DNA of 63,493 nucleotides from contig DAOUVJ010000001.1 in the NCBI GenBank assembly GCA_030667705.1, positions 1 to 63,493 on the forward strand, read 5' to 3'. Numbering within the stretch: position 1 is the first letter of the stretch; each line of letters opens with the position of its first letter. The stretch comes from Promethearchaeota archaeon. Its GTDB lineage: Archaea > Asgardarchaeota > Lokiarchaeia > Sigyniarchaeales > SOKP01. Below the pieces are notes generated by a model that was given only the letters and a program-made list of their open reading frames with translations, ran no database searches and was not told the origin of the DNA. This document shows, piece after piece, positions 6,580 through 55,926 of the stretch. Position numbers and translations under genes: made by a program.

Positions 6580-8349
6580 TTAAGAATATATTTGATTAAA
6601 CTTTAGACTTCCACAATCCCAAATTCTTGTATAACCTTCTTTTTGTCTCAAAAGATATTCAGGAATATCTTTTGGTTCACTTGGTCTTTTTCTTAATCCA
6701 AATCTATGGATTCTATCTACGCCTTTTAAGTACCAATAATTTGGTTGAGTTATTTTATCTAATTCAAAACCTAATTGATAATACAAATTTCCTTGAGACC
6801 ATCTTCTATCAGCATAACTAAATATTTGATTCCATTCAAAATTCTTCTTGAAATGAGTTAATAGTTTTCTAGCAATTCCAGGTATGTGATAATTTGAATT
6901 TGAACAAAATCTATTTAGTTCCCAAACTCCTTCTTTTGCCTTTGATCCTTTTGAAATATTACCTTTTCCAAATGTCATAACTGAAACTAATTCTTCATTG
7001 TGAAATGCACCTAATTTAATTTGAGATGCATCTTTTCCTTGAATATGAAACTCTTCTAAAAACTCATTCTTAATTTTTGGATCTATTTCTTTAATTTCAC
7101 ATTTTCTTATATGGAGTCTTTTTAAATCATTATTAACATTTAAAATTTGTTTAATTCTTGATTTAACTATATCTTTTTTAAGCAACCACTCATCTTCAAA
7201 AATATGAATTAATTGAATTCCTTTTTCTTTGCATAAGTTAGTTTTTTGCAGGTGAGAATTAATTGGATCCGGTGATATTGCTTCTGAATGATAATACACG
7301 CCATTATATTCAAATGCTATTTTTCTATCCGGAATATGAATATCTAATTCTAAAAAATGATTAGTTTTTGGATTTTTAATAATATTTCTACAATTATGTT
7401 TAACTTTATCTTCTCCAATTAAATTACAAATAAATTTATAAATTTCTTTTTCAGCATTTGAAGAACCATCTTTTCTTGGATAGCATTTTGGGCAAGTATA
7501 TCCCTGTTGAATTTCGTTCCAAATTTGTCTGAATTTGTGATTGCATTTTAAACATTTCCAATTGTGTTTAAAACCAGCATCAATATATTTTTCATCTAAA
7601 AGTTCTAAATTTAAATGATTTAAATATTTAGTTAATTTCTTTGAAAATGCAATTCTTTGTTTATCCTTTTTCACTTTTTTAATCTCTTCACATTGAGAAT
7701 TATGCTCAACTCTCATAATTTTTAAATTAGTTTGTTTCATCTTTTCTTGGACTTTAGGATCTTGTCCTGCATATTTAACATTTCTAACTCTTAAATTAGT
7801 TTGTATTGATTTTTCTCTAACTTCTTTTGCTTCCATTGGATATCTAACATTTCTAACTCTTAAATTAGTTTGTATTGTCTTTTTTTGAATTTCATCGCAT
7901 TGTGATGGGTGTTTAGTATCCCAATTTTTCAATGAGGTTTGAATTTTCTTTTCTTTAATTATATCTGAATTACTTGGATTATCAACCCCAAGATTTTTTA
8001 AACAAGTTTGTTTATGAATTTCTTTAACTATATCAGCTTGCATTGCATGCTCAACATCGTAAATTTTTAAACAAGTTTCAATTTTTTTCTTTTGAATATC
8101 TGGATCACTTGTAGAGCATCTTGGAGAACAATATTTATGAAAACCTTTGGTAACAGATATAAATTTAGTATATTTTTCACATGAATCTAATTTTCCATAC
8201 ATTTCACAGATGTTATTCACTTTTCCTTTCATTAAAAATTTTGAATAATATTCTTCTTTTGTTATTCCTTTATGATTAAATTTAAGATGGCTTGCTAATC
8301 CTTTTATATTCTTTAATTCTTTTGCGCAGATTGCACATATCATTTTCAC
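6580..8349 (-). CDS. free-standing homing endonuclease, Hef-like (paralog 1)
   Basis: 589 aa. N-terminal C2H2-like finger (CAICAKELKNIKGLASHLKFNH), then tandem ~33-aa K.T.LK...V.NPS..DIIKEKK repeats. Followed by a WKCLKC...CPKC ribbon, a Vsr/PD-(D/E)xK-like LELDIHIPDRKIAFEYNGVYYHSE core, and a C-terminal YHIQG...RIWDCGSLKF domain. Confidence 0.65.
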   Translation of the reverse strand: MKMICAICAKELKNIKGLASHLKFNHKGITKEEYYSKFLMKGKVNNICEMYGKLDSCEKYTKFISVTKGFHKYCSPRCSTSDPDIQKKKIETCLKIYDVEHAMQADIVKEIHKQTCLKNLGVDNPSNSDIIKEKKIQTSLKNWDTKHPSQCDEIQKKTIQTNLRVRNVRYPMEAKEVREKSIQTNLRVRNVKYAGQDPKVQEKMKQTNLKIMRVEHNSQCEEIKKVKKDKQRIAFSKKLTKYLNHLNLELLDEKYIDAGFKHNWKCLKCNHKFRQIWNEIQQGYTCPKCYPRKDGSSNAEKEIYKFICNLIGEDKVKHNCRNIIKNPKTNHFLELDIHIPDRKIAFEYNGVYYHSEAISPDPINSHLQKTNLCKEKGIQLIHIFEDEWLLKKDIVKSRIKQILNVNNDLKRLHIRKCEIKEIDPKIKNEFLEEFHIQGKDASQIKLGAFHNEELVSVMTFGKGNISKGSKAKEGVWELNRFCSNSNYHIPGIARKLLTHFKKNFEWNQIFSYADRRWSQGNLYYQLGFELDKITQPNYWYLKGVDRIHRFGLRKRPSEPKDIPEYLLRQKEGYTRIWDCGSLKFNQIYS

Positions 8350-8358
8350 ATTCCTCTC

Positions 8359-9474
8359 TTATTTAAAACAAATTGTATTTCTGAAAACAGAAGTTAAATA
8401 ATAAGCCAAAAATAAACTAAGTAAAAATTGTGTTTGAGTTGTAAAATTACTATATCTTTCCGAATAACCAATATCTTCCATTATTTTGAGCATTAATATT
8501 TTTACTTGTTGTTTAAAATAGATTGGAGCTATTGATTTTTTAATAAACATTAAATCTCTTAAATATTTATTATAACCTTCTCCACATAAAGAATCTATAT
8601 CTGAGATTTTTTTAATAAATAAAGTAAAAATTATTCTAATATTATCTGAATATTTTATATTAGTAAGATTATTTGTAATTAAAGTAGACAAAGAACTTTT
8701 TACTTTTGTTATTTTTCTTATTTCTTCTTGAGCTTTTAAATCTATAAATTTATAAATAACGATTTTTTTTACTACTATATCTATTGCCTTTGTACTTTTT
8801 TCTGTAGAAATATGTCGTTGTTTTTCATCATCCTCAGCCGGCTCTTCAAGAGTTTTCAATCCCAATCCTTCTGCGGAAGATTTATAATAAGCTGAGGCAA
8901 AACTTTTCATACTTTGTGAAATTCGAGTTCTACTTTCTTGAATAAATTTAGAAATTTTATCTATATCATTTTCTTTTATTGGGGTTGAATAGCGACGAAT
9001 CATTTCATATGCTAAATGTACCAAAGCATTTCCAATTGTTTTTTCTCTGGAAAATAAATGAGTTTTTGTTAAAGTTTCAAGAGAATACTTAAAAACATCT
9101 TTATTACAATATTTAAATTTTTTTTTAAATAGAGATATATAATGTCTAATAATGTAAAAAATCATTAAATATCTAAATGTTAATTGATCGTTTTCTTTTA
9201 AAAGAGAGTGCATTAAAAAAATATAATAGTTAGCAATACTATCTTGAAAAAGATCAAACTTTTCTTCTTTTCTTCCTTTCCATTTCCTTTTATTAAATTC
9301 TCTAACATCTTTCGCTGAAACTTTAGTAATCTTTAAAATATCATAAAAATGTTTTTTAAAGTTCGGACAATAACACGGTTCAGATAAATCAGATATACTT
9401 TTAGCAACAACTTTAGCTAAAAGAGATCTTAATTGAGGCTTATTGATATTTGCTTTTTTTATTATTATTTCCAT
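8359..9474 (-). CDS. hypothetical protein (Lys-rich, helical)
   Basis: 371-aa ORF that abuts the upstream gene (stop 9475 / start 9474) on the same strand as the baseplate genes. No motif recognised. Confidence 0.5.
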   Translation of the reverse strand: MEIIIKKANINKPQLRSLLAKVVAKSISDLSEPCYCPNFKKHFYDILKITKVSAKDVREFNKRKWKGRKEEKFDLFQDSIANYYIFLMHSLLKENDQLTFRYLMIFYIIRHYISLFKKKFKYCNKDVFKYSLETLTKTHLFSREKTIGNALVHLAYEMIRRYSTPIKENDIDKISKFIQESRTRISQSMKSFASAYYKSSAEGLGLKTLEEPAEDDEKQRHISTEKSTKAIDIVVKKIVIYKFIDLKAQEEIRKITKVKSSLSTLITNNLTNIKYSDNIRIIFTLFIKKISDIDSLCGEGYNKYLRDLMFIKKSIAPIYFKQQVKILMLKIMEDIGYSERYSNFTTQTQFLLSLFLAYYLTSVFRNTICFK

Positions 9475-11937
9475 TTATAAATGTATCCTAATTGTGATAT
9501 TTTCTTCTTTGAAAAATATATACTCAGGGCCATATTCAAGTAATTCATTTTCTATTAAATCAGTTAATTCAAAATTAAAGAAAATATTTGTTTCTGGTTT
9601 TAATAATCTACAATGATTAACACCCTCAATAGTTTGAACTATATCAATTATTTCAGAACGATATATTGAAATATTAGACCCAAATCTACTTTCAAAAGCT
9701 TCTACTAAAGATGTTCTTATTAAATTACTTAATTCAATATTAGATCCTGAATATGTAGATTCTTTAAAAACTTCTATTTCAAATTCTAATGGGATAGAAT
9801 AATAAGATAATTGTACCCATCCTAAATTTGAATATATATATTTTTCAGATTGACTATCTACATATAATATATCATCAGTGGCTGGAATAGTTTGAGTCCA
9901 AATTGGTGTAGTCGAATCAATACATTCATATATATTATTTTTATAATCTCCTTCTTCAGTAACAATATACCGATCATTAATAGAAGGATTAGTAGGAACA
10001 CTTTCAACTATATCTAAAACAGATTCTCGATTTATAGGATTATATAACATATTTTTACAATATCCAGTAGTATTTGTAAATTTAACATTTGTAAAATCTG
10101 TTAACATTCTGGTATCTGCTAAACTCATTGAAGACATCATAACTTGAAGAACTTGAGATTCAAAAATATTTTGATCTATTTCATCATAATAATCTTTTTG
10201 AACTACAGGAATATCATATATAATAGTACTGGTTGAATCAGAAACAGTATTTGATAACATAAAATCATGAAGACTTTTTCTAAAAATAAATTCTACTGAA
10301 TATTTTCCAGTTTCTAAATCAGATGGATCTGAAATTGTAAAATAATATAATTCATTTTCTTGAGGTAGCAATGTATAAGGATCAAATTCTAATGTAAAAT
10401 CAGATGAGGTAGAATCATTCGTCATTTCATAAACTGAACCTGTGCTTGCTATTTGCATTTCACATGTACATTGATCTGAATCTGATTCTTCTGAGGCATA
10501 ATGTAATGTAAAAATTGCTTTATTATCTTCTTTACTGACTATAAAATTATTGGCAATAATATTATATAAAGAATTATAACTAGTAACTAAAGAAGGAATT
10601 TGTTCTATTTGATACATAATATATTCATAATTTGCAACTGAATTTAATAAATTTATTGTCATGTCAAAAATAGTATAATACACAATATCATCAATTGTAA
10701 TTTCAGTATTTCTGGGAATATAAGTTGTGGCTAAAGGAATAGTTAATTTTGCATTTCTTGTAGGAACTAATTCGTTTCCAAATTCAACTGGCGTATAAAT
10801 TTGAATATCATTTACTTTAACGTCAGATCTTTTAAGAACCGCTATTGAATTTGAAGAAAGTGGTGAATTTGGTATTACAACATTTATATTTTTATAATCA
10901 TCTTCTGTGACTAATCTTTTAAGAGTTGTAATTGAGGCAATCGCATTATTTCTAATTTCTTCAATAGATTCTTCATCTTTTCCATTTATAGCTGGAGAAG
11001 GATTAATTACAGAATAATCTACAATTTGAGTTGCCCCGGCAGAAGTTACAACGTAAATTCTTTCTCCAGAATTTATAGATCCTGCAATGACATTTCCCTC
11101 TACCCCCTTGGTTACATTTATAGTCGCTTTTAAAGTAGAACCCGGGGTTGGTTGAATTCCTATTAATCCATTTCCAAAATATAGTTTTTTTCCTGTATCT
11201 GTTCTCCGAGCAACATATCCTTTTATTGATTCATTTAAAAGATATAAACTCGAATATTCAGTCCAGGTAGTCCACGATGAATCATTTGGTTCTCTAAATT
11301 CAATAGTCATTGAGGATACTTTATCCGCTATAGGAATATCTTTTGTGACAAATTGATATTGTTCAAGATCTGCATCAATTTGAAATTCTTGAATAATTTC
11401 TTTATATTGTCTAAGGGGTAATATAAAATTTACATCAGAAGTACCGGGAGGATTAGTAGATGGCAAATAATATTTTTTATTTCCATCTTCTATAAGAATA
11501 GTTAATGAAGAATTATTTGTAACCGTAATTGTAGTTTTGTAATATGTAATAAATTCAATATTATCTTTTGTTTTAAATTTAAATCCTTCTGGAATTGTAA
11601 AAACTGCAGAAGAATCACTAAAACCAAGAGGCATAGTTATTAATACATTAACGGATGAATAAGATGCTTCGTAAGATTGATATCCTAAAAATGCTGATAG
11701 GTTAAACACGCTTTCCGGAAATTGAGATTTTGTGAGAAAGAATTCATTGTATACTGACGTTTGGTAAAACATTAAATTTCCAGTTAAAGTTGAAATAACA
11801 TTAATTAGGAATGTTAAAAACGATGATTTTGTAAGATCAACTCCTTCAAGTTCAAGATATGATTTAACATAATCGCTTATTTGTTCTCTAATTACATCTC
11901 TTGAAGTATTAATTTGACTGGACATTAAATTAGACAT
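9475..11937 (-). CDS. baseplate wedge protein (baseplate J / T4 gp6-like)
   Basis: 820 aa. The N-terminus (IREQISDYVKSYLELEGVDLTKSSFLTFLINVISTLTGNLMFYQTSVYNEFFLTKSQFPESVFNLSAFLGYQ) has the typical baseplate-J organisation. The gene lies downstream of the gp25-like gene. Confidence 0.6.
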   Translation of the reverse strand: MSNLMSSQINTSRDVIREQISDYVKSYLELEGVDLTKSSFLTFLINVISTLTGNLMFYQTSVYNEFFLTKSQFPESVFNLSAFLGYQSYEASYSSVNVLITMPLGFSDSSAVFTIPEGFKFKTKDNIEFITYYKTTITVTNNSSLTILIEDGNKKYYLPSTNPPGTSDVNFILPLRQYKEIIQEFQIDADLEQYQFVTKDIPIADKVSSMTIEFREPNDSSWTTWTEYSSLYLLNESIKGYVARRTDTGKKLYFGNGLIGIQPTPGSTLKATINVTKGVEGNVIAGSINSGERIYVVTSAGATQIVDYSVINPSPAINGKDEESIEEIRNNAIASITTLKRLVTEDDYKNINVVIPNSPLSSNSIAVLKRSDVKVNDIQIYTPVEFGNELVPTRNAKLTIPLATTYIPRNTEITIDDIVYYTIFDMTINLLNSVANYEYIMYQIEQIPSLVTSYNSLYNIIANNFIVSKEDNKAIFTLHYASEESDSDQCTCEMQIASTGSVYEMTNDSTSSDFTLEFDPYTLLPQENELYYFTISDPSDLETGKYSVEFIFRKSLHDFMLSNTVSDSTSTIIYDIPVVQKDYYDEIDQNIFESQVLQVMMSSMSLADTRMLTDFTNVKFTNTTGYCKNMLYNPINRESVLDIVESVPTNPSINDRYIVTEEGDYKNNIYECIDSTTPIWTQTIPATDDILYVDSQSEKYIYSNLGWVQLSYYSIPLEFEIEVFKESTYSGSNIELSNLIRTSLVEAFESRFGSNISIYRSEIIDIVQTIEGVNHCRLLKPETNIFFNFELTDLIENELLEYGPEYIFFKEENITIRIHL

Positions 11938-12022: not shown

Positions 12023-12670
12023 TTATTTTAAATAAAATCCAGAATTCTCATTAAATAACCCTTTTAAATTACTCCTGAGTTCTTCATTTTTACTAAGAAT
12101 TTTTGTCAGAAATTGGGAATCTTCAAGGGTATGAATAGTTTTATCATAATCGAAAAATACATATGTATTTTCTACTTGATCATCAAAACTTTCTTTATTC
12201 TCACTTTGAAAATTTTTGATATTAAGTTTCCAATATCTATGATCTGTATTGGCTGAAATTTCTATTCCTTCAACCATAAACATTGGATATACGTTATTAG
12301 TTGCTCTTAAATAAGATTGATCCAATTTGAGAGCATCTCCTGGGTATGGAGTAATTCCATAACTGCTGGGTATTACTATAGAAGTTTCATTTTCTTTATG
12401 ATATCCAGTTTCTTGCCCGTCAAAAGATGTTGAAATTATTTCAGGAAAATAAACCGGTAATAGAAGAATCTTATTTCTTTTTATTCCACTTAAATCTCCA
12501 ACTTTCTCATATGCTCCACCAAAAATATCTTCATTTTCCCATACGGTTTCTTCTACATTTAAATTATAATAGGTTACTAAATAAGCAACTCCACTTTTGG
12601 AATATACATCATATACTAATTTTTGATATTCCTGAATATAATCATAAGTTCTTGAAAATTTTTGCATCAT
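12023..12670 (-). CDS. baseplate-module structural protein (function unassigned)
   Basis: 215-aa ORF immediately upstream of the gp6-like gene. It overlaps the preceding gene by 4 nt (ATGA). Confidence 0.5.
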   Translation of the reverse strand: MMQKFSRTYDYIQEYQKLVYDVYSKSGVAYLVTYYNLNVEETVWENEDIFGGAYEKVGDLSGIKRNKILLLPVYFPEIISTSFDGQETGYHKENETSIVIPSSYGITPYPGDALKLDQSYLRATNNVYPMFMVEGIEISANTDHRYWKLNIKNFQSENKESFDDQVENTYVFFDYDKTIHTLEDSQFLTKILSKNEELRSNLKGLFNENSGFYLK

Positions 12671-13617
12671 ATTTTTCCTTGAGATCTTGCTTTTCTTTCC
12701 TTATAAGAATGCATAATTTCTTCTTTTGCTAATTTCTTTCTATAAACCATTAACATTTTGAATAACTTCTTTTTACATTTAATAGGCTTTTTAGTTCCAT
12801 TACATTTACTCAATTCTCTTTCAATAAAAGCAACTGACCATTTCGTAGCTTCATATTTACATTTTGAATAACATAGATTTTTATTTACAATATTCGTAGA
12901 TTTCTCACATCGACTTCTACATTTATAAATGTTTATATCAGAAATTTTCTTTATAGCCAAACTTAACCCAGGTATAGGAATTGTCAAACTTGATATAGCT
13001 AAACCCGTATTTACAATTTTTTGAAGTTTAGGATTTGTTTTTGTAGGAGTCTCATTTTCTTTTAACTTAAATTGTTTTGACAATTTGGCAGCATGTATCC
13101 GCTGTTTAAAATCAAGATCTAACTCAGATTTAACTAATTTCACTTTCCAAATTTTTAAAAGTTTAAAAATTTTAGTTCTACATTTTAATGGTTTTTTGCT
13201 ATATCTACATTTTTTAAGTTCACGTTCAAGAAAATCAACACAAAATTTTACAGAAGCATATTCACATTCTCTATAACATAATTGTTGATCCTTTTTGACA
13301 GTTTTAATATTTTTTAAACATTCATATCTACACTTATAATTCTGTGCATTTTTAATAGTTAAAACTATCTCTGTTAAACCGGGAATTGGTGTAACAAAAA
13401 TTGCACTCATTAATCCAACTCTAATCCACCAATCTGTCTTTTTTGAGGGATCCTTATAGGGCACTTTAATATTTGAAAAATCCTCATCGATTGACTTTTC
13501 AGATAAATTAGAAAAATAATTATACATTTTTAAATGTTCTCTAAATGACAGTCTTTTTCTAATCAAAGGAGAAGTTGATATAATTTCTAATATAAATTTA
13601 TGATTAGTTTTTATCAT
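12667..13617 (-). CDS. membrane-anchored twin-CX3C cysteine-motif protein (two modules)
   Basis: 316 aa with an internal duplication. Each half has a hydrophobic IPIPGL segment followed by C-x3-C-x11-13-C-x3-C and then KC-x8-C plus a Lys-rich helix. Confidence 0.55.
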   Translation of the reverse strand: MIKTNHKFILEIISTSPLIRKRLSFREHLKMYNYFSNLSEKSIDEDFSNIKVPYKDPSKKTDWWIRVGLMSAIFVTPIPGLTEIVLTIKNAQNYKCRYECLKNIKTVKKDQQLCYRECEYASVKFCVDFLERELKKCRYSKKPLKCRTKIFKLLKIWKVKLVKSELDLDFKQRIHAAKLSKQFKLKENETPTKTNPKLQKIVNTGLAISSLTIPIPGLSLAIKKISDINIYKCRSRCEKSTNIVNKNLCYSKCKYEATKWSVAFIERELSKCNGTKKPIKCKKKLFKMLMVYRKKLAKEEIMHSYKERKARSQGKI

Positions 13618-13628
13618 ATTTTTCCCCT

Positions 13629-14276
13629 TTAATTCTTTCTCTTTAGCTTTAACTCTTTCTTTCTGTCTTTTTCCTTTTGCTGTCTTTCTTTTTCATCATA
13701 TTTTGCTTTTACTTCTCTCATTTTAATTATTTCTTTTTGTAGTTTTTTAGCCCATTTAATATGTTGACCTCTTAAACTTTTTTCACATTTCAAAGGGTCA
13801 GGAACCATTCTACATTTTGAAATTTCTGCTCGAATATCACTAACTATATTTTTAGCAGCATTTACTTGACATTCTGCAACACAAAGTCTTTTGCGGCCGG
13901 GTGAGAATTTTTTAACACATGCTTGCCAACATGGGTCAGTAAATTTTCTAAAAAGATAATATAATACAGCAGAAAGAATTATAGTTGGGGTGGTTGGAAC
14001 CCCAAGAGATAAAACAGTTCCCCCTGCAATAGCTGAAAATGAATACTTAATAAACTTTTTAAACTTTCCTTCAAAATCTCGGATTCCTAATTCATTTAGA
14101 ATTTTACCCTCATTAAAAACATAAGAAATACTTTCTTCATATGTCATTTTGGTTATTCTTTTACATATATTCACATGTTGTTTAAATGAAACATTTTCTT
14201 TTAAAACATTACTATCAACAGCTAAATCTAATAAAGCATGTTTACACGATTGTTCTAATAATTTTTTATCAAGCAT
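13629..14276 (-). CDS. membrane-anchored twin-CX3C cysteine-motif protein (one module)
   Basis: 215 aa. A hydrophobic segment is followed by CWQAC-x11-CVAEC...KCRMVPDPLKC and a Lys-rich tail. It is a paralog of the adjacent 316-aa protein. Confidence 0.55.
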   Translation of the reverse strand: MLDKKLLEQSCKHALLDLAVDSNVLKENVSFKQHVNICKRITKMTYEESISYVFNEGKILNELGIRDFEGKFKKFIKYSFSAIAGGTVLSLGVPTTPTIILSAVLYYLFRKFTDPCWQACVKKFSPGRKRLCVAECQVNAAKNIVSDIRAEISKCRMVPDPLKCEKSLRGQHIKWAKKLQKEIIKMREVKAKYDEKERQQKEKDRKKELKLKRKN

Positions 14277-14297: not shown

Positions 14298-14738
14298 TTA
14301 ACCTGTGAATTTAAAATATTTCGACTCATCAATTATAACCTGTAATTGATCTGTTTGTCCTTTATATTTAACTTGAATATCTATTGAAAAACCTTTTCTA
14401 TTATCCAAAAAACCAATTTGAATATTTGTTGGGGTTGCTCTATCATCATATTTTATAAGTTTTAACATAATTTCATTTTTTATTTTTTCTTTAGTTATTT
14501 CATCTGCTTGCTCAAATATCATTTTATATAAATCACAACCATATTCTGGATCATGATCATAACTTCTTGTTGGAGTCAATAAAATATTATTCCAAGAAAG
14601 AACAATAGTTTCAAAATCAATAACTTGTTTAAAATCACCGGAGGAAGAAATATTCGGAGTAAAATCAGAAATACTACCCCTTGATCCTATTACATTTTTT
14701 TTAAATCTATCAAATAAATTAGCCAAATTAACCCCCAT
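14298..14738 (-). CDS. baseplate wedge protein, GPW/gp25 family
   Basis: 146 aa. ILLTPTRSYDHDPEYGCDLYKMIFEQADEIT...IKNEIMLKLIKYDDR matches the gp25/TssE-type signature (T..G.R...P.yG..l..l.fe). Confidence 0.7.
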   Translation of the reverse strand: MGVNLANLFDRFKKNVIGSRGSISDFTPNISSSGDFKQVIDFETIVLSWNNILLTPTRSYDHDPEYGCDLYKMIFEQADEITKEKIKNEIMLKLIKYDDRATPTNIQIGFLDNRKGFSIDIQVKYKGQTDQLQVIIDESKYFKFTG

Positions 14739-14969: not shown

Positions 14970-15761
14970 TCATGACGAGTAGACGCTACGAAAAAAGTTT
15001 TCTACTAAATCAATAGTAGCCACCTCCTCATTCCCACAAGTTGGGCAAAAAGTTTTCATCTTTAATTCAACCCCATATTTTCCAAAATTTTCTGAATATT
15101 TATCATGAATAATTCTTTTATCTCTGGCAGGTAAAGATAAATAAGCATCCATTATATCAACTTTGTCTGAATATACAATTGGGGTTTTACTTTTTGTAAC
15201 ATCTTGCTCAAACTTTTCAATAATAAGAGTTTCTATAATTAAATCAATGGAAGAACCTGGTCTATTTGATAATTCTTTTAAAGCGGCAGTTTCATCAAAT
15301 AAAGAAGGTTGTTTAATTATTGCAACGACTCCCTTACTTATTGGAAGATTAACTTTAATTCTTTGTGATAAAACGTTGTCATGAGGATATTCACTATAAT
15401 TAAAAGTACTCGAAGCTTTAATTGTAACCGGATATTCTTTCTTACAACTGGAGCAAGTAATCTCATAATTACGAATCTCTTCATAAGTAATATGGAATAA
15501 GCCGAAAAGTAGGGAATCTCTATCTTTCAAAGTCAACAATCTCAGAAAATCATTAAAATCTTTAATCTCATCTGGTTTCTTAGCTATTGAATCATAAATA
15601 CATTTATTTAGATGATCAGTAATTTTAGCTGGAGTAATAAAACTCCCTTTCATTCTTTCCTCTTCTTGTACATTCAAAGATCTCATATTAAAATGAAATT
15701 TTGTATGAGGACAAATTACCTCATATTCTGGTAACTTCACATCAAATCCTGTAAACGGCAT
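14970..15761 (-). CDS. baseplate hub-associated protein (T4 gp26-like, tentative) with Zn-ribbon cysteines
   Basis: 263 aa with CSSC...CPTC pairs. An N-terminal F.F.MRSLNVQEEERM segment resembles gp26-type proteins from memory. The gene lies upstream of gp25. Confidence 0.35.
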   Translation of the reverse strand: MPFTGFDVKLPEYEVICPHTKFHFNMRSLNVQEEERMKGSFITPAKITDHLNKCIYDSIAKKPDEIKDFNDFLRLLTLKDRDSLLFGLFHITYEEIRNYEITCSSCKKEYPVTIKASSTFNYSEYPHDNVLSQRIKVNLPISKGVVAIIKQPSLFDETAALKELSNRPGSSIDLIIETLIIEKFEQDVTKSKTPIVYSDKVDIMDAYLSLPARDKRIIHDKYSENFGKYGVELKMKTFCPTCGNEEVATIDLVENFFRSVYSS

Positions 15762-15775
15762 AGTTCATTCTCCTT

Positions 15776-17587
15776 TCAATTATTAACCATTTTAAATTTT
15801 AAACTTCCACAATCCCAAATTCTTGCATAATCTTCTTTATATTTTAAATTCAATCTGTGAATTCTTTTGAAACTTTTTATATACCAATAGTCAGGTTTTA
15901 TAATTTGTTCTAATTCAAAACCTAATTGATAATACAAACTTCCTTGAGACCATCTTTTATCCGCATAGGAAAAGATTTTTTCCCATTTATAATTTTTCTT
16001 GAAATAATTTAATAGTTTTCCAGCAATTCCCGGAACATGGAAATTTGAATTTGAACAAAATCTATTCAATGACCAAACTTTTTCCTTATTTTTAAAAGTC
16101 ATAACTGAAATTAATTTATTGTTATAGAAAGCTCCAAGTTTAATATTAGAATTATCATATCCTTGAATGTGATAATTATCTAAGAATTTATTTTTTACTT
16201 TTGAATTTATTTCTTTAATTTTACATTCTTCTTTGTGAATTCTTGTGCCCTTATTAATATTCAAAATATGTCTAATAAGAGATTTAACAATATCTTGTTT
16301 AAATACCCACTCATCCTCAAAAATATGAATTAGTTGAATTCCTAATTTTTTGCATAAATTAGTTTTATGTAAATGATAATTTGAAACTTTAAAATTATCT
16401 AATTTACGAGATTCCTTTAAAACTTTTTCAGAATGCCAATACAATCCATTAAATTCAAAAGCTATTTTTTTATCCGGAATAAATATATCAAGTTCAAGAG
16501 GATATAATAAAGATCTATTATTCACAATTATTTTATTTTTAATTTCATCTTTTATAAAATCAGATAATTCTTTTTCTTTTGAAGAAGATCTATAATTTAT
16601 TGGCGGTCTGCATTTTGGGCAAGTAAAACCCTGTTGAATTAAATTCCAAATTTGAATAAAATGATTTCCACATTTTATGCATTTCCAATTATGTTTATGA
16701 TAACAATTCTTATATTGTTTATCAAGAAGTTCTACATTAAATGAACTTAAAATCTTTTCTAAATATTTAGTAAAAACTTTTAACTTTGTTTCTTTAATTT
16801 TGTTTTTAATTATATCACATTGAGAAGGAATTTTAGTCCCATATTTATTTAAATTAGTCTTAACAATTTTGTCTTTTATTTTTTTAGTTTTAGAAGGATT
16901 GTCAACACCATAAATTTTCACCCAAGCTTTCTTTTTATTTTCCTTAACTATATCTGAACTATTTGGACTTTCAAATCCATATTTTTTTAATGAAGTTATT
17001 TTGCCTTTTTCTCTTACTTCTTTAGATGATAATGAAGATTTCCCTCCATATTTTTCTAAATTAGTCTTTATAACATTGTTTCTAATAATTTGGGATTTCA
17101 TTGGATGAACTTCACCCCAATTTTTTAAAGATGTTTCTCTATATTTATTTTGAATAGTCTTAAGTTGTTCAGGTTTTCCATTAAAATTTTTTCTATATGT
17201 TTCACTTTTTTTCTTTTTAACAATATCAGATTTACTAGCATTGTCTACACCTAACTTTATTATACATGATTCTTTGCATTTCTCTTTCACACTGTCAGCT
17301 TGAAAAACAAATCTCGTTCCATATTTTTCTAAAGATTTTTCTTCCTTTTTCTTTTTAACAAGATTGGATTTACTAACACAACCCGGACCGCAGTATTTAG
17401 AATAACCAGTTTTTAAACCCCTATAACTGGTTATTCTAATGCAGTTTTCATTTTGACAAATTCCTTCATTTGAATCTTTTTTAAGGAACTTATCAAAATA
17501 TTCTTTGGTAGTAAAGTTATGAGTTTTAAGATGTAGAGCAAGTTTTAAAGTATTTGAAAATTCACATTTGCATATTTCACATATCAT
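15776..17587 (-). CDS. free-standing homing endonuclease, Hef-like (paralog 2)
   Basis: 603 aa with the same architecture as 6580-8349: MICEICKCEFSNTLKLALHLKTH, repeats, WKCIKC...CPKC, LELDIFIPDKKIAFEFNGLYWHSE, ...RIWDCGSLKF. Confidence 0.65.
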   Translation of the reverse strand: MICEICKCEFSNTLKLALHLKTHNFTTKEYFDKFLKKDSNEGICQNENCIRITSYRGLKTGYSKYCGPGCVSKSNLVKKKKEEKSLEKYGTRFVFQADSVKEKCKESCIIKLGVDNASKSDIVKKKKSETYRKNFNGKPEQLKTIQNKYRETSLKNWGEVHPMKSQIIRNNVIKTNLEKYGGKSSLSSKEVREKGKITSLKKYGFESPNSSDIVKENKKKAWVKIYGVDNPSKTKKIKDKIVKTNLNKYGTKIPSQCDIIKNKIKETKLKVFTKYLEKILSSFNVELLDKQYKNCYHKHNWKCIKCGNHFIQIWNLIQQGFTCPKCRPPINYRSSSKEKELSDFIKDEIKNKIIVNNRSLLYPLELDIFIPDKKIAFEFNGLYWHSEKVLKESRKLDNFKVSNYHLHKTNLCKKLGIQLIHIFEDEWVFKQDIVKSLIRHILNINKGTRIHKEECKIKEINSKVKNKFLDNYHIQGYDNSNIKLGAFYNNKLISVMTFKNKEKVWSLNRFCSNSNFHVPGIAGKLLNYFKKNYKWEKIFSYADKRWSQGSLYYQLGFELEQIIKPDYWYIKSFKRIHRLNLKYKEDYARIWDCGSLKFKMVNN

Positions 17588-17596
17588 TTTAAATCC

Positions 17597-18028
17597 TTAT
17601 TTTAGTTTCGATAATTTTTCTTCATACTTTTTTAATTTTTTAACTCCAGCAGCAATAAATATATCAAATCGTTTTATACAGTCTTGTTTTTTTGGATTTT
17701 TATCAGTACATTTGTCTGCTTTATTTTTCTTAAGGGTAGTAATATACTCTTTAAGATTACCAAGGCGCGCAGCATATCTTTTTTTCTTGTTGAGTGCAAA
17801 TGCGCCTTTTACGTCTCCTTCATCGATTTTAGTAGTAAATCGATCTTTAACAATTTCCTCTGCCTGTTCATCTAATTTGACAATACGCCCATCTAAAATA
17901 AGAGCCATCAATTGAGATTCAGACGCCTCATGTTGAATAAATTGAAGCATTTGAAGTTTTGCTGGTTTTGTCATTTTAGAATCAACAATTATTTGACCTG
18001 TTTGTAATTGTAAATCTTTTTTATCCAT
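17597..18028 (-). CDS. hypothetical protein with C-terminal KC-x9-C / Lys-rich helix
   Basis: 143-aa ORF sandwiched between two homing endonuclease genes. Its C-terminus (ADKCTDKNPKKQDCIKRF...KKLKKYEEKL) resembles the last motif of the twin-CX3C proteins. Confidence 0.45.
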   Translation of the reverse strand: MDKKDLQLQTGQIIVDSKMTKPAKLQMLQFIQHEASESQLMALILDGRIVKLDEQAEEIVKDRFTTKIDEGDVKGAFALNKKKRYAARLGNLKEYITTLKKNKADKCTDKNPKKQDCIKRFDIFIAAGVKKLKKYEEKLSKLK

Positions 18029-18053: not shown

Positions 18054-19700
18054 TTAAAATATAACATTATTCTTTAAAGCATTAAATTTTAAACTTCCAC
18101 AATCCCAAATTTTAAGATATCCTTCTTGAGCCCTTAAAATCCATTCTGGAATATCTTTTGGTTCATCTTTAGTTTTTCTTAATCCGAATCTATGAATTCT
18201 ACTATAATCTTTTAAGTACCAATAATTAGGATTAGTAATATGTTCTAATTCAAATCCTAATATGGTATAAAGATTTCCTTGACTCCATCTTCTATCTGAA
18301 TATGAAAAGATTTCTTTCCATTCAAAATTCTTCTTGAAATAACTTAATAGTTTTCCAGCAATTCCTGGAATATGATAATCTGAATTTGAACAAAATCTAT
18401 TTAGTTCCCAAACTTTATCTTGGGATCTGGATCCTTTTGAAATATTTCCTTTTCCAAAAGTCATAACTGAAATTAATTTCTCATTATAAAAAGCTCCAAG
18501 TTTAATTTTAGAAGCATCTTTTCCTTGAATATGATATGTTTCTAAAAACTCATTTTTAACTTTTGGATCTATTTCTTTTATTATACATTTTCTTGCATGA
18601 ATTCTTTTATTATCATTAATATTCAAAATTTGTTTAATACGGGATTTAACTATATCTTGTTTAAACATCCATTCATCTTCAAAAATATGAATTAATTGGA
18701 TTCCTAATTTTTCACATTCAATTGTTTTATTTAAATGATAGTTTGGAGATTGTTCTGAATGCCAATAAAATCCATCATATTCAATTGCTATTTGTTTGGA
18801 TGGAATATAAATATCAATTTCCCAATTTCTATTTGTTTTTGGATTTTTAATTAAATTCCAACAATTATGTTCAACTTTATCAGACCCAATTAAATCACAA
18901 ATAAAATTATAAATCTCTTGTTCTGCAATTGAAGTTCCCATCAGTCTGGGGAAACATTTTGGACATTGATATCCTTGTTGAACACTATTATACAAATGCA
19001 CAAAAATTGTATTACAAATTTTACATTTGAATTTATAATCTATATGAGCATGCTCATATTTATTTAAAAGTATCAGATTTCTGTCTTCAAGAAATTTTTC
19101 TAATTTAAGAAAAAAGTTTTTCATATATGTATGTTTACTTTTAAGTTTAAACTTTTCAACTTTCATTGGGCTATCAACACCATATTTTTGAATGTATGTG
19201 TTTTTTAGCTTTTGTTTAATATCAGGATCATACATTGGGTGACCACCAAACTTCTCATCAAATGTCTTTTGTCTTTTTTCTTTAACCCAATCTAAACCAT
19301 AAAAGTTGTCTGTATTATATTTCTCTTTTAATGAAACTAATAATGTATCATAATGAGCAGCTTTTAAACTTCCATAATTTTTAATAGCAGTTTTCTTTTT
19401 CTTTTCTTTAACCCAATCTAATTTTGAAATATTATCAACATTATATTTTTTCTTCATAGATTCTTTTAAAACTTTATTTGTTTCTTGTGGGGTTGGACAA
19501 GGGTCATGACAATATTTTCTAAAACCTTCTTTCATATTCATATAAGTAGTTTTAGAACCACATTCTTTACATAACCCTTCTCCAGGTAATTTTATATATT
19601 TTGAATAATATTCTTGATGAGTAATTTTATGAATCTTAATATGTTTTGATAAACTATTCAAATTTTTTAATTCTTTTTCACAAATTTCACATTTAATCAT
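18054..19700 (-). CDS. free-standing homing endonuclease, Hef-like (paralog 3)
   Basis: 548 aa: MIKCEICEKELKNLNSLSKHIKIH, repeats, FKCKIC...CPKC, WEIDIYIPSKQIAIEYDGFYWHSE, ...KIWDCGSLKF. Confidence 0.65.
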   Translation of the reverse strand: MIKCEICEKELKNLNSLSKHIKIHKITHQEYYSKYIKLPGEGLCKECGSKTTYMNMKEGFRKYCHDPCPTPQETNKVLKESMKKKYNVDNISKLDWVKEKKKKTAIKNYGSLKAAHYDTLLVSLKEKYNTDNFYGLDWVKEKRQKTFDEKFGGHPMYDPDIKQKLKNTYIQKYGVDSPMKVEKFKLKSKHTYMKNFFLKLEKFLEDRNLILLNKYEHAHIDYKFKCKICNTIFVHLYNSVQQGYQCPKCFPRLMGTSIAEQEIYNFICDLIGSDKVEHNCWNLIKNPKTNRNWEIDIYIPSKQIAIEYDGFYWHSEQSPNYHLNKTIECEKLGIQLIHIFEDEWMFKQDIVKSRIKQILNINDNKRIHARKCIIKEIDPKVKNEFLETYHIQGKDASKIKLGAFYNEKLISVMTFGKGNISKGSRSQDKVWELNRFCSNSDYHIPGIAGKLLSYFKKNFEWKEIFSYSDRRWSQGNLYTILGFELEHITNPNYWYLKDYSRIHRFGLRKTKDEPKDIPEWILRAQEGYLKIWDCGSLKFNALKNNVIF

Positions 19701-54180: not shown

Positions 54181-55926
54181 TTAAAAATTTTTATTATCTA
54201 TATAAGAATTTAAATCTTTCATTTCTTCTTCCAAACTGTTTATTTTTGATTTAATTGTAATAACACATGATTGTTTTTCTGTTTTCTCTAATTTATCACA
54301 AAAAGAAAGAACTTTCTTTAAATCAATTATCCTCTCTTTAACTCCTTTTAGTTCAAATTTCTTCATACATATTATAGTATTTTTTCCCATTTTTTCTTTT
54401 CTACAAAAACTTGCAGCTTTTCCCATTAATCTTTGATAAGCTTTATAACTTGCAAAAATGAAAGTAGCAGATACGACAACTGAGGTTAATGCAATTAAGG
54501 CCCCTGAGAGAGCTGGGCTTATATTAGCAGCTTTTGCAAGATTGGATGCCCCATATATTTTACTTAAAATATTCTTAACAGCAACACTTGGATCAAATGT
54601 AAAAATCTTCTGTATAAATTGAGCCCATTGAGGTTCTTTAATACCACCTGAATTACTAAATGCTTGATTTCCAGGATCTAACCCTGTGTCTTTATATTGT
54701 CTATATCTTTCTTTTGCATTATTAAATGCGGTTCCTGCATCAGTATATGCATTTTTAGTTTTTTCATTCTCTTTTTCCAAATGAGCTTTCATAGCATTAG
54801 CCATATTTTTCTTGGCTTGTTTCATAAGTTTTTCAAGTTCACTTAATGTATTCGGGTTAATCTTACTCTCAGATAAAAATAATTGATTTGTAAATAAGGA
54901 ACTATTTAAAATAGTTTCTAAAAGAATTCCTGTAGTTATTCCTTTTGTAGAAATAAAAGATTCATCTATTCCTATAAAATCAGTATTCAAACTTATATTT
55001 AAAATCTCAATAAGATCTTCATAATTCTCATTATCATGCTCTGGAAATTTCCCCTCAACAACAAAATGTAATATCTCATAATCTGAAGCTTGATTTAAAA
55101 TAAAATCTTTAGATTCAATTGTGGTTACTAATGAAACTAAATTTTCCCTAAGAGAAGATATAAATATAAGAGTATCAATATATTTAATATTTGTATCATT
55201 TGATTCTATTATAGATTTTTGTTTAATTTGTTTATCATAATATTTCCAATTATTTAATTTAACTCCCAAGTAAATACCAAAAATAAATTTTCCTAAAGTA
55301 ACTAAAACTGAAAGAATTATAGCGGATAAAATAATTAAAACTCCACTACCCCCTAAAACACTTGAGAAAAGAGAACCGAACAAAAGTATAATAGGTAATA
55401 TAAGTTCAATCGAATTTAACGTTTTATTTGTTGCACTATCATAACTCATTATTTCTGTTTGAATATCAACGAGTTTTCTTTCTGTTTTTGTAATAAGTTT
55501 AACTATAATAGGGCCTGGAAGAGCTAATATACTACTTATTAATATTGCAATTATGTCCACAGGAATCAGTTTTGTTTGTTTCATTTGTATGTAACGAAAA
55601 CCCAAAAAAACTGATAATAATATAGTTAAAAAATTAGCTTGTGTATAATCACATAAATCAAGTATTTCTTTTTTAAATCTTGACTCATCAAATCCTCCGC
55701 CTTTAGTAGAATTTTTTAGGGCCAATTGAACCTTTTTATAATTTTCAGATTTTTGAATTTCTTTAATTTTTTTCTTGGCTTCTGGTTTATTTTTTCCAGA
55801 TGGTTTGAATTTAGAAAGAATTTGTTTAAAATCCCGAACAATATTTCCAGAATCTTTATTTTCTAATATAGTAAAATTTTCTGTGTTTAAATTATTTAGA
55901 TATGTGTTTAATGTATCATATTCCAT
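54181..55926 (-). CDS. large polytopic membrane protein
   Basis: 581 aa with several hydrophobic segments (aa ~95-230 and ~480-500). The C-terminal Cys pairs (C-x12-C ... C-x10-C) plus a Lys-rich helix loosely recall the twin-CX3C family. Confidence 0.45.
   Translation of the reverse strand: MEYDTLNTYLNNLNTENFTILENKDSGNIVRDFKQILSKFKPSGKNKPEAKKKIKEIQKSENYKKVQLALKNSTKGGGFDESRFKKEILDLCDYTQANFLTILLSVFLGFRYIQMKQTKLIPVDIIAILISSILALPGPIIVKLITKTERKLVDIQTEIMSYDSATNKTLNSIELILPIILLFGSLFSSVLGGSGVLIILSAIILSVLVTLGKFIFGIYLGVKLNNWKYYDKQIKQKSIIESNDTNIKYIDTLIFISSLRENLVSLVTTIESKDFILNQASDYEILHFVVEGKFPEHDNENYEDLIEILNISLNTDFIGIDESFISTKGITTGILLETILNSSLFTNQLFLSESKINPNTLSELEKLMKQAKKNMANAMKAHLEKENEKTKNAYTDAGTAFNNAKERYRQYKDTGLDPGNQAFSNSGGIKEPQWAQFIQKIFTFDPSVAVKNILSKIYGASNLAKAANISPALSGALIALTSVVVSATFIFASYKAYQRLMGKAASFCRKEKMGKNTIICMKKFELKGVKERIIDLKKVLSFCDKLEKTEKQSCVITIKSKINSLEEEMKDLNSYIDNKNF

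What the first reader, a model, noticed from the sequence alone, without database searches (positions are those of the whole stretch)
12667..14276. Twin-CX3C, membrane-anchored cysteine-motif family tandemly duplicated inside the baseplate module
Seen in the sequence: three copies of one module occur, two in the 316-aa protein and one in the 215-aa protein. Each has a hydrophobic segment (..IPIPGL.. / ..GVPTTPTIILSAVLYYLF), then C-x3-C-x11-13-C-x3-C, then about 20 residues, then KC-x8-C followed by a Lys-rich helix (for example YKCRYEC...LCYREC...KKCRYSKKPLKC). Looser versions of the last motif appear in 17597-18028 (KC-x9-C) and at the C-terminus of the 581-aa membrane protein (54181-55926). 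Established knowledge: twin CX3C motifs staple helix-loop-helix hairpins by two disulfides in the small Tim chaperones. Inference: these may be disulfide-stapled helical hairpins anchored in a membrane or buried in the baseplate. I do not recognise this family among T4-type baseplate components, and its position between the gp25-like and gp6-like genes is unusual.
Basis: partly seen in the sequence, partly recalled or inferred. Interest (0 to 1): 0.6.

Follow-up and report, generated by a model that had tools for sequence, protein, structure and literature searches.

The report
Disulfide-stapled helical proteins in phage baseplate
Two neighbouring genes in the tail-baseplate block of an uncultured large T4-like phage belong to a big, undescribed protein family. 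Its very basic helical domain is almost certainly held together by three disulfide bridges, but what it does is untested and the proposed membrane anchor is doubtful.

Summary
The 215-aa gene (type A) and the 316-aa gene (type B, two modules) carry three copies of one module. Each copy is a hydrophobic Pro/Gly-kinked segment followed by C-x3-C-x11-13-C-x3-C-x18-C-x8-C in a very basic helical domain.

The two "looser" copies are also true paralogs: 17597-18028, and the C-terminus of the 581-aa protein.

The family is large: 663 representative clusters. It has no match above threshold in Pfam, PHROGs or PDB sequences, no significant Foldseek match, and no hit in cultured phages.

In 47 of 47 related viral contigs that show both flanking genes, only family genes lie between the gp25-like gene and a conserved 215-aa gene upstream of gp6. 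In 30 of these, A and B are fused.

Across 222 modules the cysteines are lost almost only in pairs: C1+C4, C2+C3 or C5+C6. That is the signature of three disulfides and argues against a Cys4 zinc site. AlphaFold2 gives a confident three-helix zig-zag.

The "membrane anchor" is not established. Hydrophobicity is marginal and poorly conserved, and the flanking domain carries a net charge of +18 to +19.

Most likely these are lineage-specific baseplate-associated proteins that are oxidised outside the cytoplasm. Their function is inferred from position only.

The parts
13629..14276 (-). Type A family gene, 215 aa: N-terminal helical domain, hydrophobic segment, six-Cys basic helical domain
   Evidence: ORF. 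Homologs P0006-P0017 at 38-100% identity. AlphaFold2 mean pLDDT 82.
13953..14042 (-). Type A uncharged Gly/Ala/Ser/Thr/Pro-rich hydrophobic segment (residues 79-108)
   Evidence: Kyte-Doolittle 19-residue maximum 1.61 and crude insertion energy +4.7 kcal/mol. Residues 83-95 have pLDDT below 50. Length and composition vary strongly among homologs.
13632..13952 (-). Type A Cys domain (residues 109-215): helices 97-123, 126-157 and 161-214. Cysteines C116, C120, C132, C136, C155, C164. Net charge +19.
   Evidence: Helices. Cys columns invariant in 36 A-type and fused sequences. Charge.
12667..13617 (-). Type B family gene, 316 aa: one N-terminal domain plus two modules (B1, B2)
   Evidence: ORF. 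Internal repeat E 1e-22. AlphaFold2 mean pLDDT 82.
13060..13431 (-). B module 1 (residues 63-186): hydrophobic segment with PIPGL, then C96, C100, C114, C118, C137, C146. Net charge of the Cys domain +19.
   Evidence: 70% identical to the stand-alone P0002 of the closest relative.
12670..13059 (-). B module 2 (residues 187-316): hydrophobic segment with PIPGL, then C233, C237, C249, C253, C272, C281. Net charge +18.
   Evidence: 72% identical to the stand-alone B gene of L005.
17597..18028 (-). Truncated type C paralog, 143 aa. It keeps the N-domain and one Cys pair (C-x9-C, aligned to C2...C3). It has no hydrophobic segment and no C5/C6.
   Evidence: Type C HMM E 8e-15. phmmer E 1e-15 to the genes that lie upstream of the gp26-like gene in related contigs.
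54181..55926 (-). 581-aa multi-pass membrane protein whose residues about 254-573 are a type C unit: N-domain, spacer, strong transmembrane segment, Cys module
   Evidence: Translation. Type C HMM E 2e-16. Matches to type C paralogs of other phage records at E 6e-8 and 7e-8. Transmembrane segments with insertion energy -1.5 to +0.2 kcal/mol.
54208..54495 (-). Cys module of the 581-aa protein (residues 478-573). C1 and C4 are replaced (A, F), C2 and C3 are kept, then C-x10-C.
   Evidence: Alignments (domain i-E 6.5e-13).
14298..14738 (-). gp25-like baseplate wedge gene, immediately upstream (21-nt gap to type A)
   Evidence: Pfam GPW_gp25 E 4.5e-7, above cut-off. phrog_261 E 2e-18.
14970..15761 (-). 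gp26-like baseplate hub gene
   Evidence: Pfam T4_baseplate E 4e-10. phrog_150.
12023..12670 (-). Conserved 215-aa gene of unknown family (p215). Its start overlaps the stop of type B by 4 nt. It always lies between the family genes and gp6.
   Evidence: Present in 47 of 47 loci. No Pfam or PHROG match.
9475..11937 (-). gp6-like baseplate wedge gene
   Evidence: phrog_219 E 2.5e-23. tblastn to 'baseplate wedge subunit' genes of Kyanoviridae.

Best explanation
These genes encode members of an undescribed protein family that is a fixed part of the baseplate gene block in a lineage of uncultured large T4-like phages.

Each module has two parts:
- a hydrophobic, Pro/Gly-kinked segment;
- a strongly cationic three-helix zig-zag.

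Three intramolecular disulfides lock the zig-zag. C1-C4 and C2-C3 staple helices 1 and 2, as in alpha-hairpinins and small Tim proteins. C5-C6 closes the Pro-containing turn between helices 2 and 3.

Types A and B act together. They are a single fused polypeptide in most relatives. In this phage, type B has picked up a second module.

The most likely role is baseplate-associated, structural or accessory, in the hub or inner wedge. The proteins would become oxidised outside the reducing cytoplasm, which makes the cationic helices rigid. The cationic face and the hydrophobic segment would then contact either other baseplate proteins or the host envelope during infection.

Status of each step:
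- Shown: paralogy, family size, synteny, paired loss of cysteines, helical model.
- Inferred: that the disulfides actually form, that the proteins are in the virion, and any envelope contact.
For: Paralogy and family:
- Searches show the window's genes are paralogs.
- A profile search finds 663 representative clusters at E<=1e-3, 177 at E<=1e-10.

Disulfides:
- Of 222 modules, 174 have all six Cys.
- About 30 lack C2 and C3 together, 4 lack C1 and C4 together, 6 lack C5 and C6 together. Only about 3 show a single loss.
- On a tree of 210 modules this is about 5 + 1 + 2 events. Every event hits the partner expected from hairpin geometry, and there is no cross-partner loss.
- The C1-C4 / C2-C3 connectivity of CX3C...CX3C helical hairpins is established for alpha-hairpinins (PMC7191063).

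Fold:
- AlphaFold2 places the cysteines on three consecutive antiparallel helices. Per-10-residue pLDDT is about 80-97 over the Cys domains, 88-96 in the best-modelled module.

Baseplate link:
- The order gp26-like, gp25-like, A(-B), p215, gp6-like holds in all loci examined, down to 27% identity.
- 47 of 47 IMG/VR loci have only family genes between gp25-like and p215.
- Gaps are 21 nt and 11 nt, then a 4-nt overlap, and there is no minus-strand terminator-like site in the block.
- A-B fusions occur in 30 of 47 loci.
- A third paralog lies upstream of the gp26-like gene in 21 of 50 loci.

Precedent: the cytoplasm-assembled baseplate wedge of cyanophage Pam3 carries functional intra- and inter-subunit disulfides (PMC9942802).
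Against: - No virion proteomics or structure exists for any relative. The family is absent from 50,697 deposited phage genomes.
- Virions assemble in a reducing cytoplasm, so oxidation would have to occur after release.
- One paralog is a five-segment membrane protein, which is unlike a virion component.
- The phylogenetically corrected number of co-loss events is small, about 8 on a poorly supported tree. The formal sign test is underpowered.
- Model coordinates could not be read here, so S-S distances were not measured.
- No structural neighbour was found that would anchor a function.
Confidence: 0.5

Rival explanations
1. The proteins are inner-membrane proteins made late in infection. The hydrophobic segment is a signal-anchor and the Cys domain is oxidised in the periplasm. 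They would serve as a membrane platform for baseplate assembly, or in lysis or superinfection control, comparable in layout to T4 holin T or an i-spanin.
For: - A 25-38-residue uncharged segment always precedes the Cys domain.
- 55% of family members reach Kyte-Doolittle 1.6.
- The 581-aa paralog is a bona fide multi-pass membrane protein, and its last strong transmembrane segment directly precedes the module.
- Paired cysteines imply an oxidising compartment.
Against: - Crude insertion energy is positive in 99% of members, median +4.2 kcal/mol. Several homologs carry K/R/H inside the segment, or have only about 12 hydrophobic residues.
- The domain that would have to cross the membrane has net charge +18 to +19, against the positive-inside rule.
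- In the common A-B fusion, two plain transmembrane helices would place the two homologous Cys domains on opposite sides.
- There is no holin or spanin family match and no adjacent lipoprotein partner.
- Invariant placement inside the baseplate block is unlike accessory lysis or exclusion genes.
Confidence: 0.25
2. The cysteines bind metal (Zn or similar) rather than forming disulfides. The proteins are cytoplasmic, very basic nucleic-acid- or protein-binding factors.
For: - Weak sub-threshold match to the 'Tim10/DDP family zinc finger' model: E 0.016, 15.1 bits against a cut-off of 22.3.
- Extreme basicity.
- The cytoplasm is reducing.
Against: - Cysteines are lost two at a time in three different combinations while the other four stay. 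A Cys4 site would not tolerate that.
- The CX3C pairs lie within helices rather than in zinc knuckles.
- No zinc-finger family matches any of 41 members.
Confidence: 0.1
3. The proteins are non-virion assembly chaperones of the baseplate hub or wedge, analogous in role to T4 gp51 or gp26. They would be present only in the infected cell.
For: - They sit next to the gp26-like gene. In T4, gp26 and gp51 are listed as hub assembly chaperones (PMC3004832).
- The gene order is conserved.
Against: - There is no similarity to T4 gp26, gp51 or gp28.
- A purely cytoplasmic chaperone gives no reason for pairwise-conserved cysteines.
Confidence: 0.12

Closest known systems
Plant alpha-hairpinins / vicilin-buried peptides (for example EcAMP1; PDB 7uv2)
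   Same: Both have a C-x3-C...C-x3-C motif on two antiparallel helices with C1-C4 and C2-C3 disulfides, and a cationic surface (PMC7191063). 7uv2 is the best, though non-significant, PDB sequence match: E 0.058 over the twin CX3C.
   Different: Alpha-hairpinins are 30-50-residue plant peptides cut from precursors. Here the hairpin is part of a roughly 100-residue three-helix domain with a third disulfide, preceded by a hydrophobic segment and an N-terminal domain, in phage proteins of 150-400 aa. There is no significant sequence homology.
Small Tim chaperones (Tim9/Tim10; Pfam zf-Tim10_DDP, PF02953)
   Same: Both have a twin CX3C with a similar spacer and helix-loop-helix stapling by two disulfides (own knowledge). 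There is a weak HMM match over C1-C2.
   Different: The score is below the family cut-off (15.1 against 22.3 bits). Small Tims are about 10-kDa hexameric mitochondrial chaperones without the third Cys pair, hydrophobic segment or basic tail.
Disulfide-bonded baseplate wedge of cyanophage Pam3 (gp22/gp23/gp24)
   Same: It shows that baseplate proteins of an aquatic myophage carry structurally important disulfides although they are assembled in the cytoplasm (PMC9942802).
   Different: Those cysteines lie in the conserved wedge and fibre proteins themselves and mainly make inter-subunit links. There is no twin CX3C helical module and no sequence relation.
T4 hub assembly and accessory proteins gp26, gp51, gp28
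   Same: They are small proteins encoded beside gene 25/26, with an uncertain place in the particle (PMC3004832).
   Different: There is no detectable similarity. T4 gp26 and its homolog here carry zinc-ribbon-like CxxC pairs, not CX3C helices.

Membership tests
Small Tim / zf-Tim10_DDP (PF02953) | Match to the family HMM above the gathering score | tested here: not met
   15.1 bits against a cut-off of 22.3, E 0.016, residues 108-128 only. None of 41 members scored at E<=0.01.
Small Tim / zf-Tim10_DDP (PF02953) | Twin CX3C separated by 11-16 residues on a helix-loop-helix | tested here: met
   Spacers of 11, 13 and 11 residues. AlphaFold2 helices flank the loop.
Small Tim / zf-Tim10_DDP (PF02953) | About 10-kDa soluble protein forming hexameric chaperones of the mitochondrial intermembrane space | tested here: not met
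   These are phage proteins of 143-581 aa with extra domains. The oligomeric state was not testable.
Alpha-hairpinins | Cys motif XnC1X3C2XnC3X3C4Xn with C1-C4 and C2-C3 connectivity | tested here: met
   The motif is present. Connectivity is inferred from paired loss of C1+C4 and C2+C3. It was not measured chemically.
Alpha-hairpinins | Short (30-50 aa) plant defence peptide, often released from vicilin-type precursors | tested here: not met
   Phage origin, large multidomain proteins, PDB profile match E 0.058 only.
Cys4 zinc finger / zinc ribbon | Four Cys ligands conserved as one unit | tested here: not met
   Three different pairs are lost independently while the remaining four stay.
Known T4-type hub and tube-base proteins (gp25, 26, 27, 28, 29, 48, 51, 54) | Detectable sequence similarity to a T4 component | tested here: not met
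   Family HMMs against T4 gp25-gp54: best E 0.1, about 1 bit. The window's A and B have no PHROG match. Six of seven other family members also have none, and the seventh has only two weak hits of unknown function.
Holins / i-spanins | Bona fide transmembrane domain, and a match to a holin or spanin family | tested here: inconclusive
   Hydrophobicity is marginal. No Pfam or PHROG family match. Topology is not testable here.

The most novel reading that the evidence does not exclude
The modules are virion-borne, envelope-active devices. Disulfide-stapled cationic helical hairpins would be held in the baseplate until tail contraction. They share the physico-chemical recipe of alpha-hairpinin antimicrobial peptides and carry a Pro-kinked hydrophobic hairpin. 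On contraction they would bind the anionic host envelope and insert from the outside, helping the tube tip open the membrane for DNA entry. This would be a new class of phage penetration protein. It would also explain why copy number and fusions vary while the position in the baseplate block does not.
Probability: 0.15. Interest if true: 0.8.

Novelty: new variant of a known kind. Interest (0 to 1): 0.5.

Why it matters
T4-type baseplates are thought to be well catalogued. Here a whole lineage of uncultured large phages has two to five extra genes of one unknown family fixed between gp26/gp25 and gp6. CheckV estimates imply genomes of roughly 300 kb or more for this lineage.

The paired-cysteine pattern gives a concrete, testable structural prediction: three specific disulfides. 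It adds a second case, after cyanophage Pam3, where redox chemistry may matter for a contractile-tail baseplate.

The family has 663 representative clusters and no Pfam or PHROG entry, so it deserves a family definition. If the modules prove to act on the host envelope, they would bear on how contractile tails cross the inner membrane, which is still open.

Tried and rejected
Searches that found nothing significant:
- Pfam and PHROGs on the window's proteins and on 41 + 7 family members. Only chance-level hits appeared: MpPF26, Ole_e_6, sub-threshold zf-Tim10_DDP.
- PDB sequence profile search. The best hits were a vicilin peptide at E 0.058 and a proteasome subunit at E 0.09.
- Foldseek of both models against PDB and BFVD. 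No match at E<=0.001, only generic helical proteins. The top BFVD hit is an uncharacterised uncultured-phage protein at probability 0.80.
- tblastn of A, B and a fused homolog against 50,697 phage records.
- Scan of GTDB representative genomes.
- Family HMMs against T4 gp25-gp54.
- p215 against the gp53-like gene of phage C48C1.

Other checks:
- An Erv1/ALR sulfhydryl oxidase search of the assembly found nothing, but the control genomes also gave nothing, so it is uninformative.
- T4 late-promoter (TATAAATA) and sigma-70 scans are not above shuffles and are uninformative in this AT-rich DNA.
- The search for related loci with the 581-aa protein found no close relatives.

Rejected reading: a Cys4 zinc site formed by the four invariant cysteines of alignment A1 (C1, C4, C5, C6). 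The wider set shows C1/C4 and C5/C6 can each be lost as pairs.
Full report
**What is there**

The window is a 63.5-kb, about 29% G+C contig of a divergent T4-like myovirus. On the minus strand the gene order is:
- a gp26-like hub gene (14970-15761; Pfam T4_baseplate, E 4e-10);
- a gp25-like wedge gene (14298-14738; GPW_gp25, above cut-off);
- the 215-aa gene (13629-14276);
- the 316-aa gene (12667-13617);
- a conserved 215-aa gene of unknown family, "p215" (12023-12670);
- a gp6-like wedge gene (9475-11937; phrog_219, E 2.5e-23).

The gaps are 21 nt and 11 nt, followed by a 4-nt overlap. No minus-strand terminator-like site lies in the block.

The cysteine spacing is:
- 215-aa protein: C116-x3-C120-x11-C132-x3-C136-x18-C155-x8-C164.
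- 316-aa protein, copy 1: C96, C100, C114, C118, C137, C146.
- 316-aa protein, copy 2: C233, C237, C249, C253, C272, C281.

The two copies in the 316-aa protein are 41% identical (E 1e-22). The two proteins align at E 1e-9 over the module and at E 1e-7 over a shared N-terminal helical domain. A regular expression for the whole pattern matches only these three places in all six-frame ORFs of the window.

**A larger family inside the window**

Related contigs often carry a third paralog ("type C", about 160 aa) upstream of the gp26-like gene.

An HMM built from those genes hits all four family genes of the window at about 1e-15:
- The 143-aa protein (17597-18028) is a truncated type C copy. It is separated from the gp26-like gene by a large inserted ORF of the DUF7487 type, a type annotated as homing endonuclease in another copy in the window. 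Its C-x9-C aligns with the inner hairpin pair, not with the terminal KC-x8-C.
- Residues about 254-573 of the 581-aa protein (54181-55926) are a complete type C unit behind a multi-pass membrane N-terminus.

**Spread and context**

Word-seeded searches found only unnamed metagenomic proteins. An exhaustive profile search of 1.84 billion representatives found 663 at E<=1e-3 and 177 at E<=1e-10.

There is no match above threshold in Pfam, PHROGs, PDB sequences, 50,697 deposited phage genomes or GTDB representative genomes.

Fifty-seven IMG/VR loci were fetched:
- In all 47 that show both the gp25-like gene and p215, only family genes lie between them.
- 30 of those have A and B fused into one protein of about 380-400 aa, 14 have separate genes, and 3 have one short ORF.
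- 21 of 50 have a family member upstream of the gp26-like gene.

Synteny holds down to 27% identity (L062).

The nearest cultured relatives by gp6 (Kyanoviridae: Melnitz, C48C1) have gp25 directly abutting gp6. In T4, genes 26 and 25 are followed by uvsY. The insertion is therefore lineage-specific but fixed.

Close relatives differ in the B gene. L076 has only the B1 type. L005 has only the B2 type, 72% identical to module 2. The window has both joined in one ORF.

**Disulfides, not zinc**

I aligned 222 modules to the Cys-domain HMM. The cysteine patterns were:

| Pattern | Modules |
|---|---|
| All six Cys present | 174 |
| C2 and C3 both missing | about 30 |
| C1 and C4 both missing (type C) | 4 |
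| C5 and C6 both missing | 6 |
| One Cys missing | about 3 |

The remaining few modules are gapped or partial rows.

On a tree built without the Cys columns, these losses correspond to about 5, 1 and 2 events. Each cysteine has the same count as its partner. There is no co-variation between non-partners.

The formal paired test is underpowered because few events lie on supported branches. Even so, every event falls on one of the three pairs predicted from geometry, out of 15 possible pairs. C1-C4 and C2-C3 is the established connectivity of CX3C...CX3C helical hairpins (PMC7191063).

A Cys4 metal site could not lose any of three different pairs.

AlphaFold2 places the cysteines on three consecutive antiparallel helices: 97-123, 126-157 and 161-214 in the 215-aa protein, with an equivalent arrangement twice in the 316-aa protein. 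Mean pLDDT is 82. Per-10-residue values are about 80-97 over the Cys domains. C5 and C6 bracket the short turn, which contains a nearly invariant Pro.

I could not read the model coordinates, so S-S distances were not measured.

**The membrane anchor is doubtful**

- The Kyte-Doolittle 19-residue maximum is 1.6 for the window's proteins.
- Across 187 family proteins, 55% reach 1.6, but a crude Hessa insertion energy is positive in 99% (median +4.2 kcal/mol).
- The clear transmembrane segments of the 581-aa protein score -1.5 to +0.2. The soluble gp6-like protein scores +3.1.
- In type A the segment is a Gly/Ala-rich stretch of variable length. In several homologs it contains Lys, Arg or His, leaving only about 12 hydrophobic residues that AlphaFold2 models as the start of helix 1.
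- In type B it has an invariant P-x-P centre, which is unusual for a simple anchor.
- The adjoining Cys domains carry net charges of +19, +19 and +18.
- The common A-B fusion has two such segments and no third. Two plain transmembrane helices would put homologous disulfide domains on opposite sides.
- Against this, one paralog (the 581-aa protein) is a true membrane protein with a strong transmembrane segment directly before the module.

The question stays open.

**Function**

No structural neighbour was found, and there is no similarity to T4 hub proteins.

The only functional evidence is position. The genes are invariant, co-oriented and tightly spaced inside the hub/inner-wedge block. They show Rosetta-stone fusions between A and B, and also between A and a further unknown domain of about 175 aa. 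That domain is a separate gene between the gp25-like gene and A in L006.

Pairwise-conserved disulfides point to a life outside the reducing cytoplasm. The Pam3 baseplate shows that cytoplasm-assembled baseplates can depend on disulfides (PMC9942802).

I therefore favour baseplate-associated virion or accessory proteins (confidence 0.5) over three rivals:
- a periplasm-facing membrane protein (0.25);
- a non-virion chaperone (0.12);
- a metal-binding cytoplasmic factor (0.1).

**Verdict**

The disulfide-hairpin interpretation is supported by covariation and modelling. The membrane anchoring is not established.

This is an undescribed family that uses a known stapling principle in a new context. 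Interest is moderate: the structural prediction is sharp and testable, but the function remains inferred.

Noticed in passing
whole contig (G000:C134 = window 1-63493): The phage contig is binned in a 3.1-Mb, 31.5% G+C assembly that looks archaeal. It has ribosomal protein S4e, but no bacterial L19, LpxC or DsbA. This is either a composition-driven binning artefact or a hint about the host.
   Followed up: partly
window 15776-17587, 18054-19700, 6580-8349 (all minus strand): Three large paralogous ORFs (548-603 aa) interrupt the baseplate block. They have a C2H2-like N-terminus and repeated KYG...NP units. Equivalent ORFs in related locus L005 are annotated DUF7487, and ORF 6580-8349 matches phrog_3339 'homing endonuclease'. 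One of them separates the truncated type C gene from the gp26-like gene.
   Followed up: partly
L006:9468-9998; proteins P0087, P0122, P0125, P0129, P0136, P0151, P0177: An unknown domain of about 175 aa (M..YY.I.K.Y.G...GNTHLF...) is a separate gene between the gp25-like gene and type A in one relative. In several distant family members it is fused to the N-terminus of type A. It has no Pfam or PHROG match.
   Followed up: partly
window 12023-12670 and 8359-9474: Two further genes of unknown family (215 aa and 371 aa) flank the gp6-like gene. The 215-aa gene is in every fetched locus that extends past the family genes, and the 371-aa gene is in nearly all that extend past gp6. They are probably unrecognised baseplate components. 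The 215-aa protein shows no similarity to a Kyanoviridae gp53-like protein.
   Followed up: partly
records behind L046 and L062: Related viral contigs of 223 kb and 269 kb are estimated at only 71-74% complete. The lineage therefore probably has genomes of about 300 kb or more (jumbo phages).
   Followed up: no
L006:1494-3203: A related phage contig encodes a hybrid sensor kinase (PAS, HisKA, HATPase_c, response-regulator receiver) a few genes from the tail sheath gene.
   Followed up: no
window 54181-55926: The 581-aa protein joins a basic N-terminus and four or five hydrophobic segments to a complete type C unit. This architecture was not found in the eight related phage records searched.
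   Followed up: partly
window 532-5232 (+): A 1566-aa ORF has only weak matches to tape-measure PHROGs (E 1e-6 to 8e-4). It lies on the opposite strand to the baseplate block.
   Followed up: no
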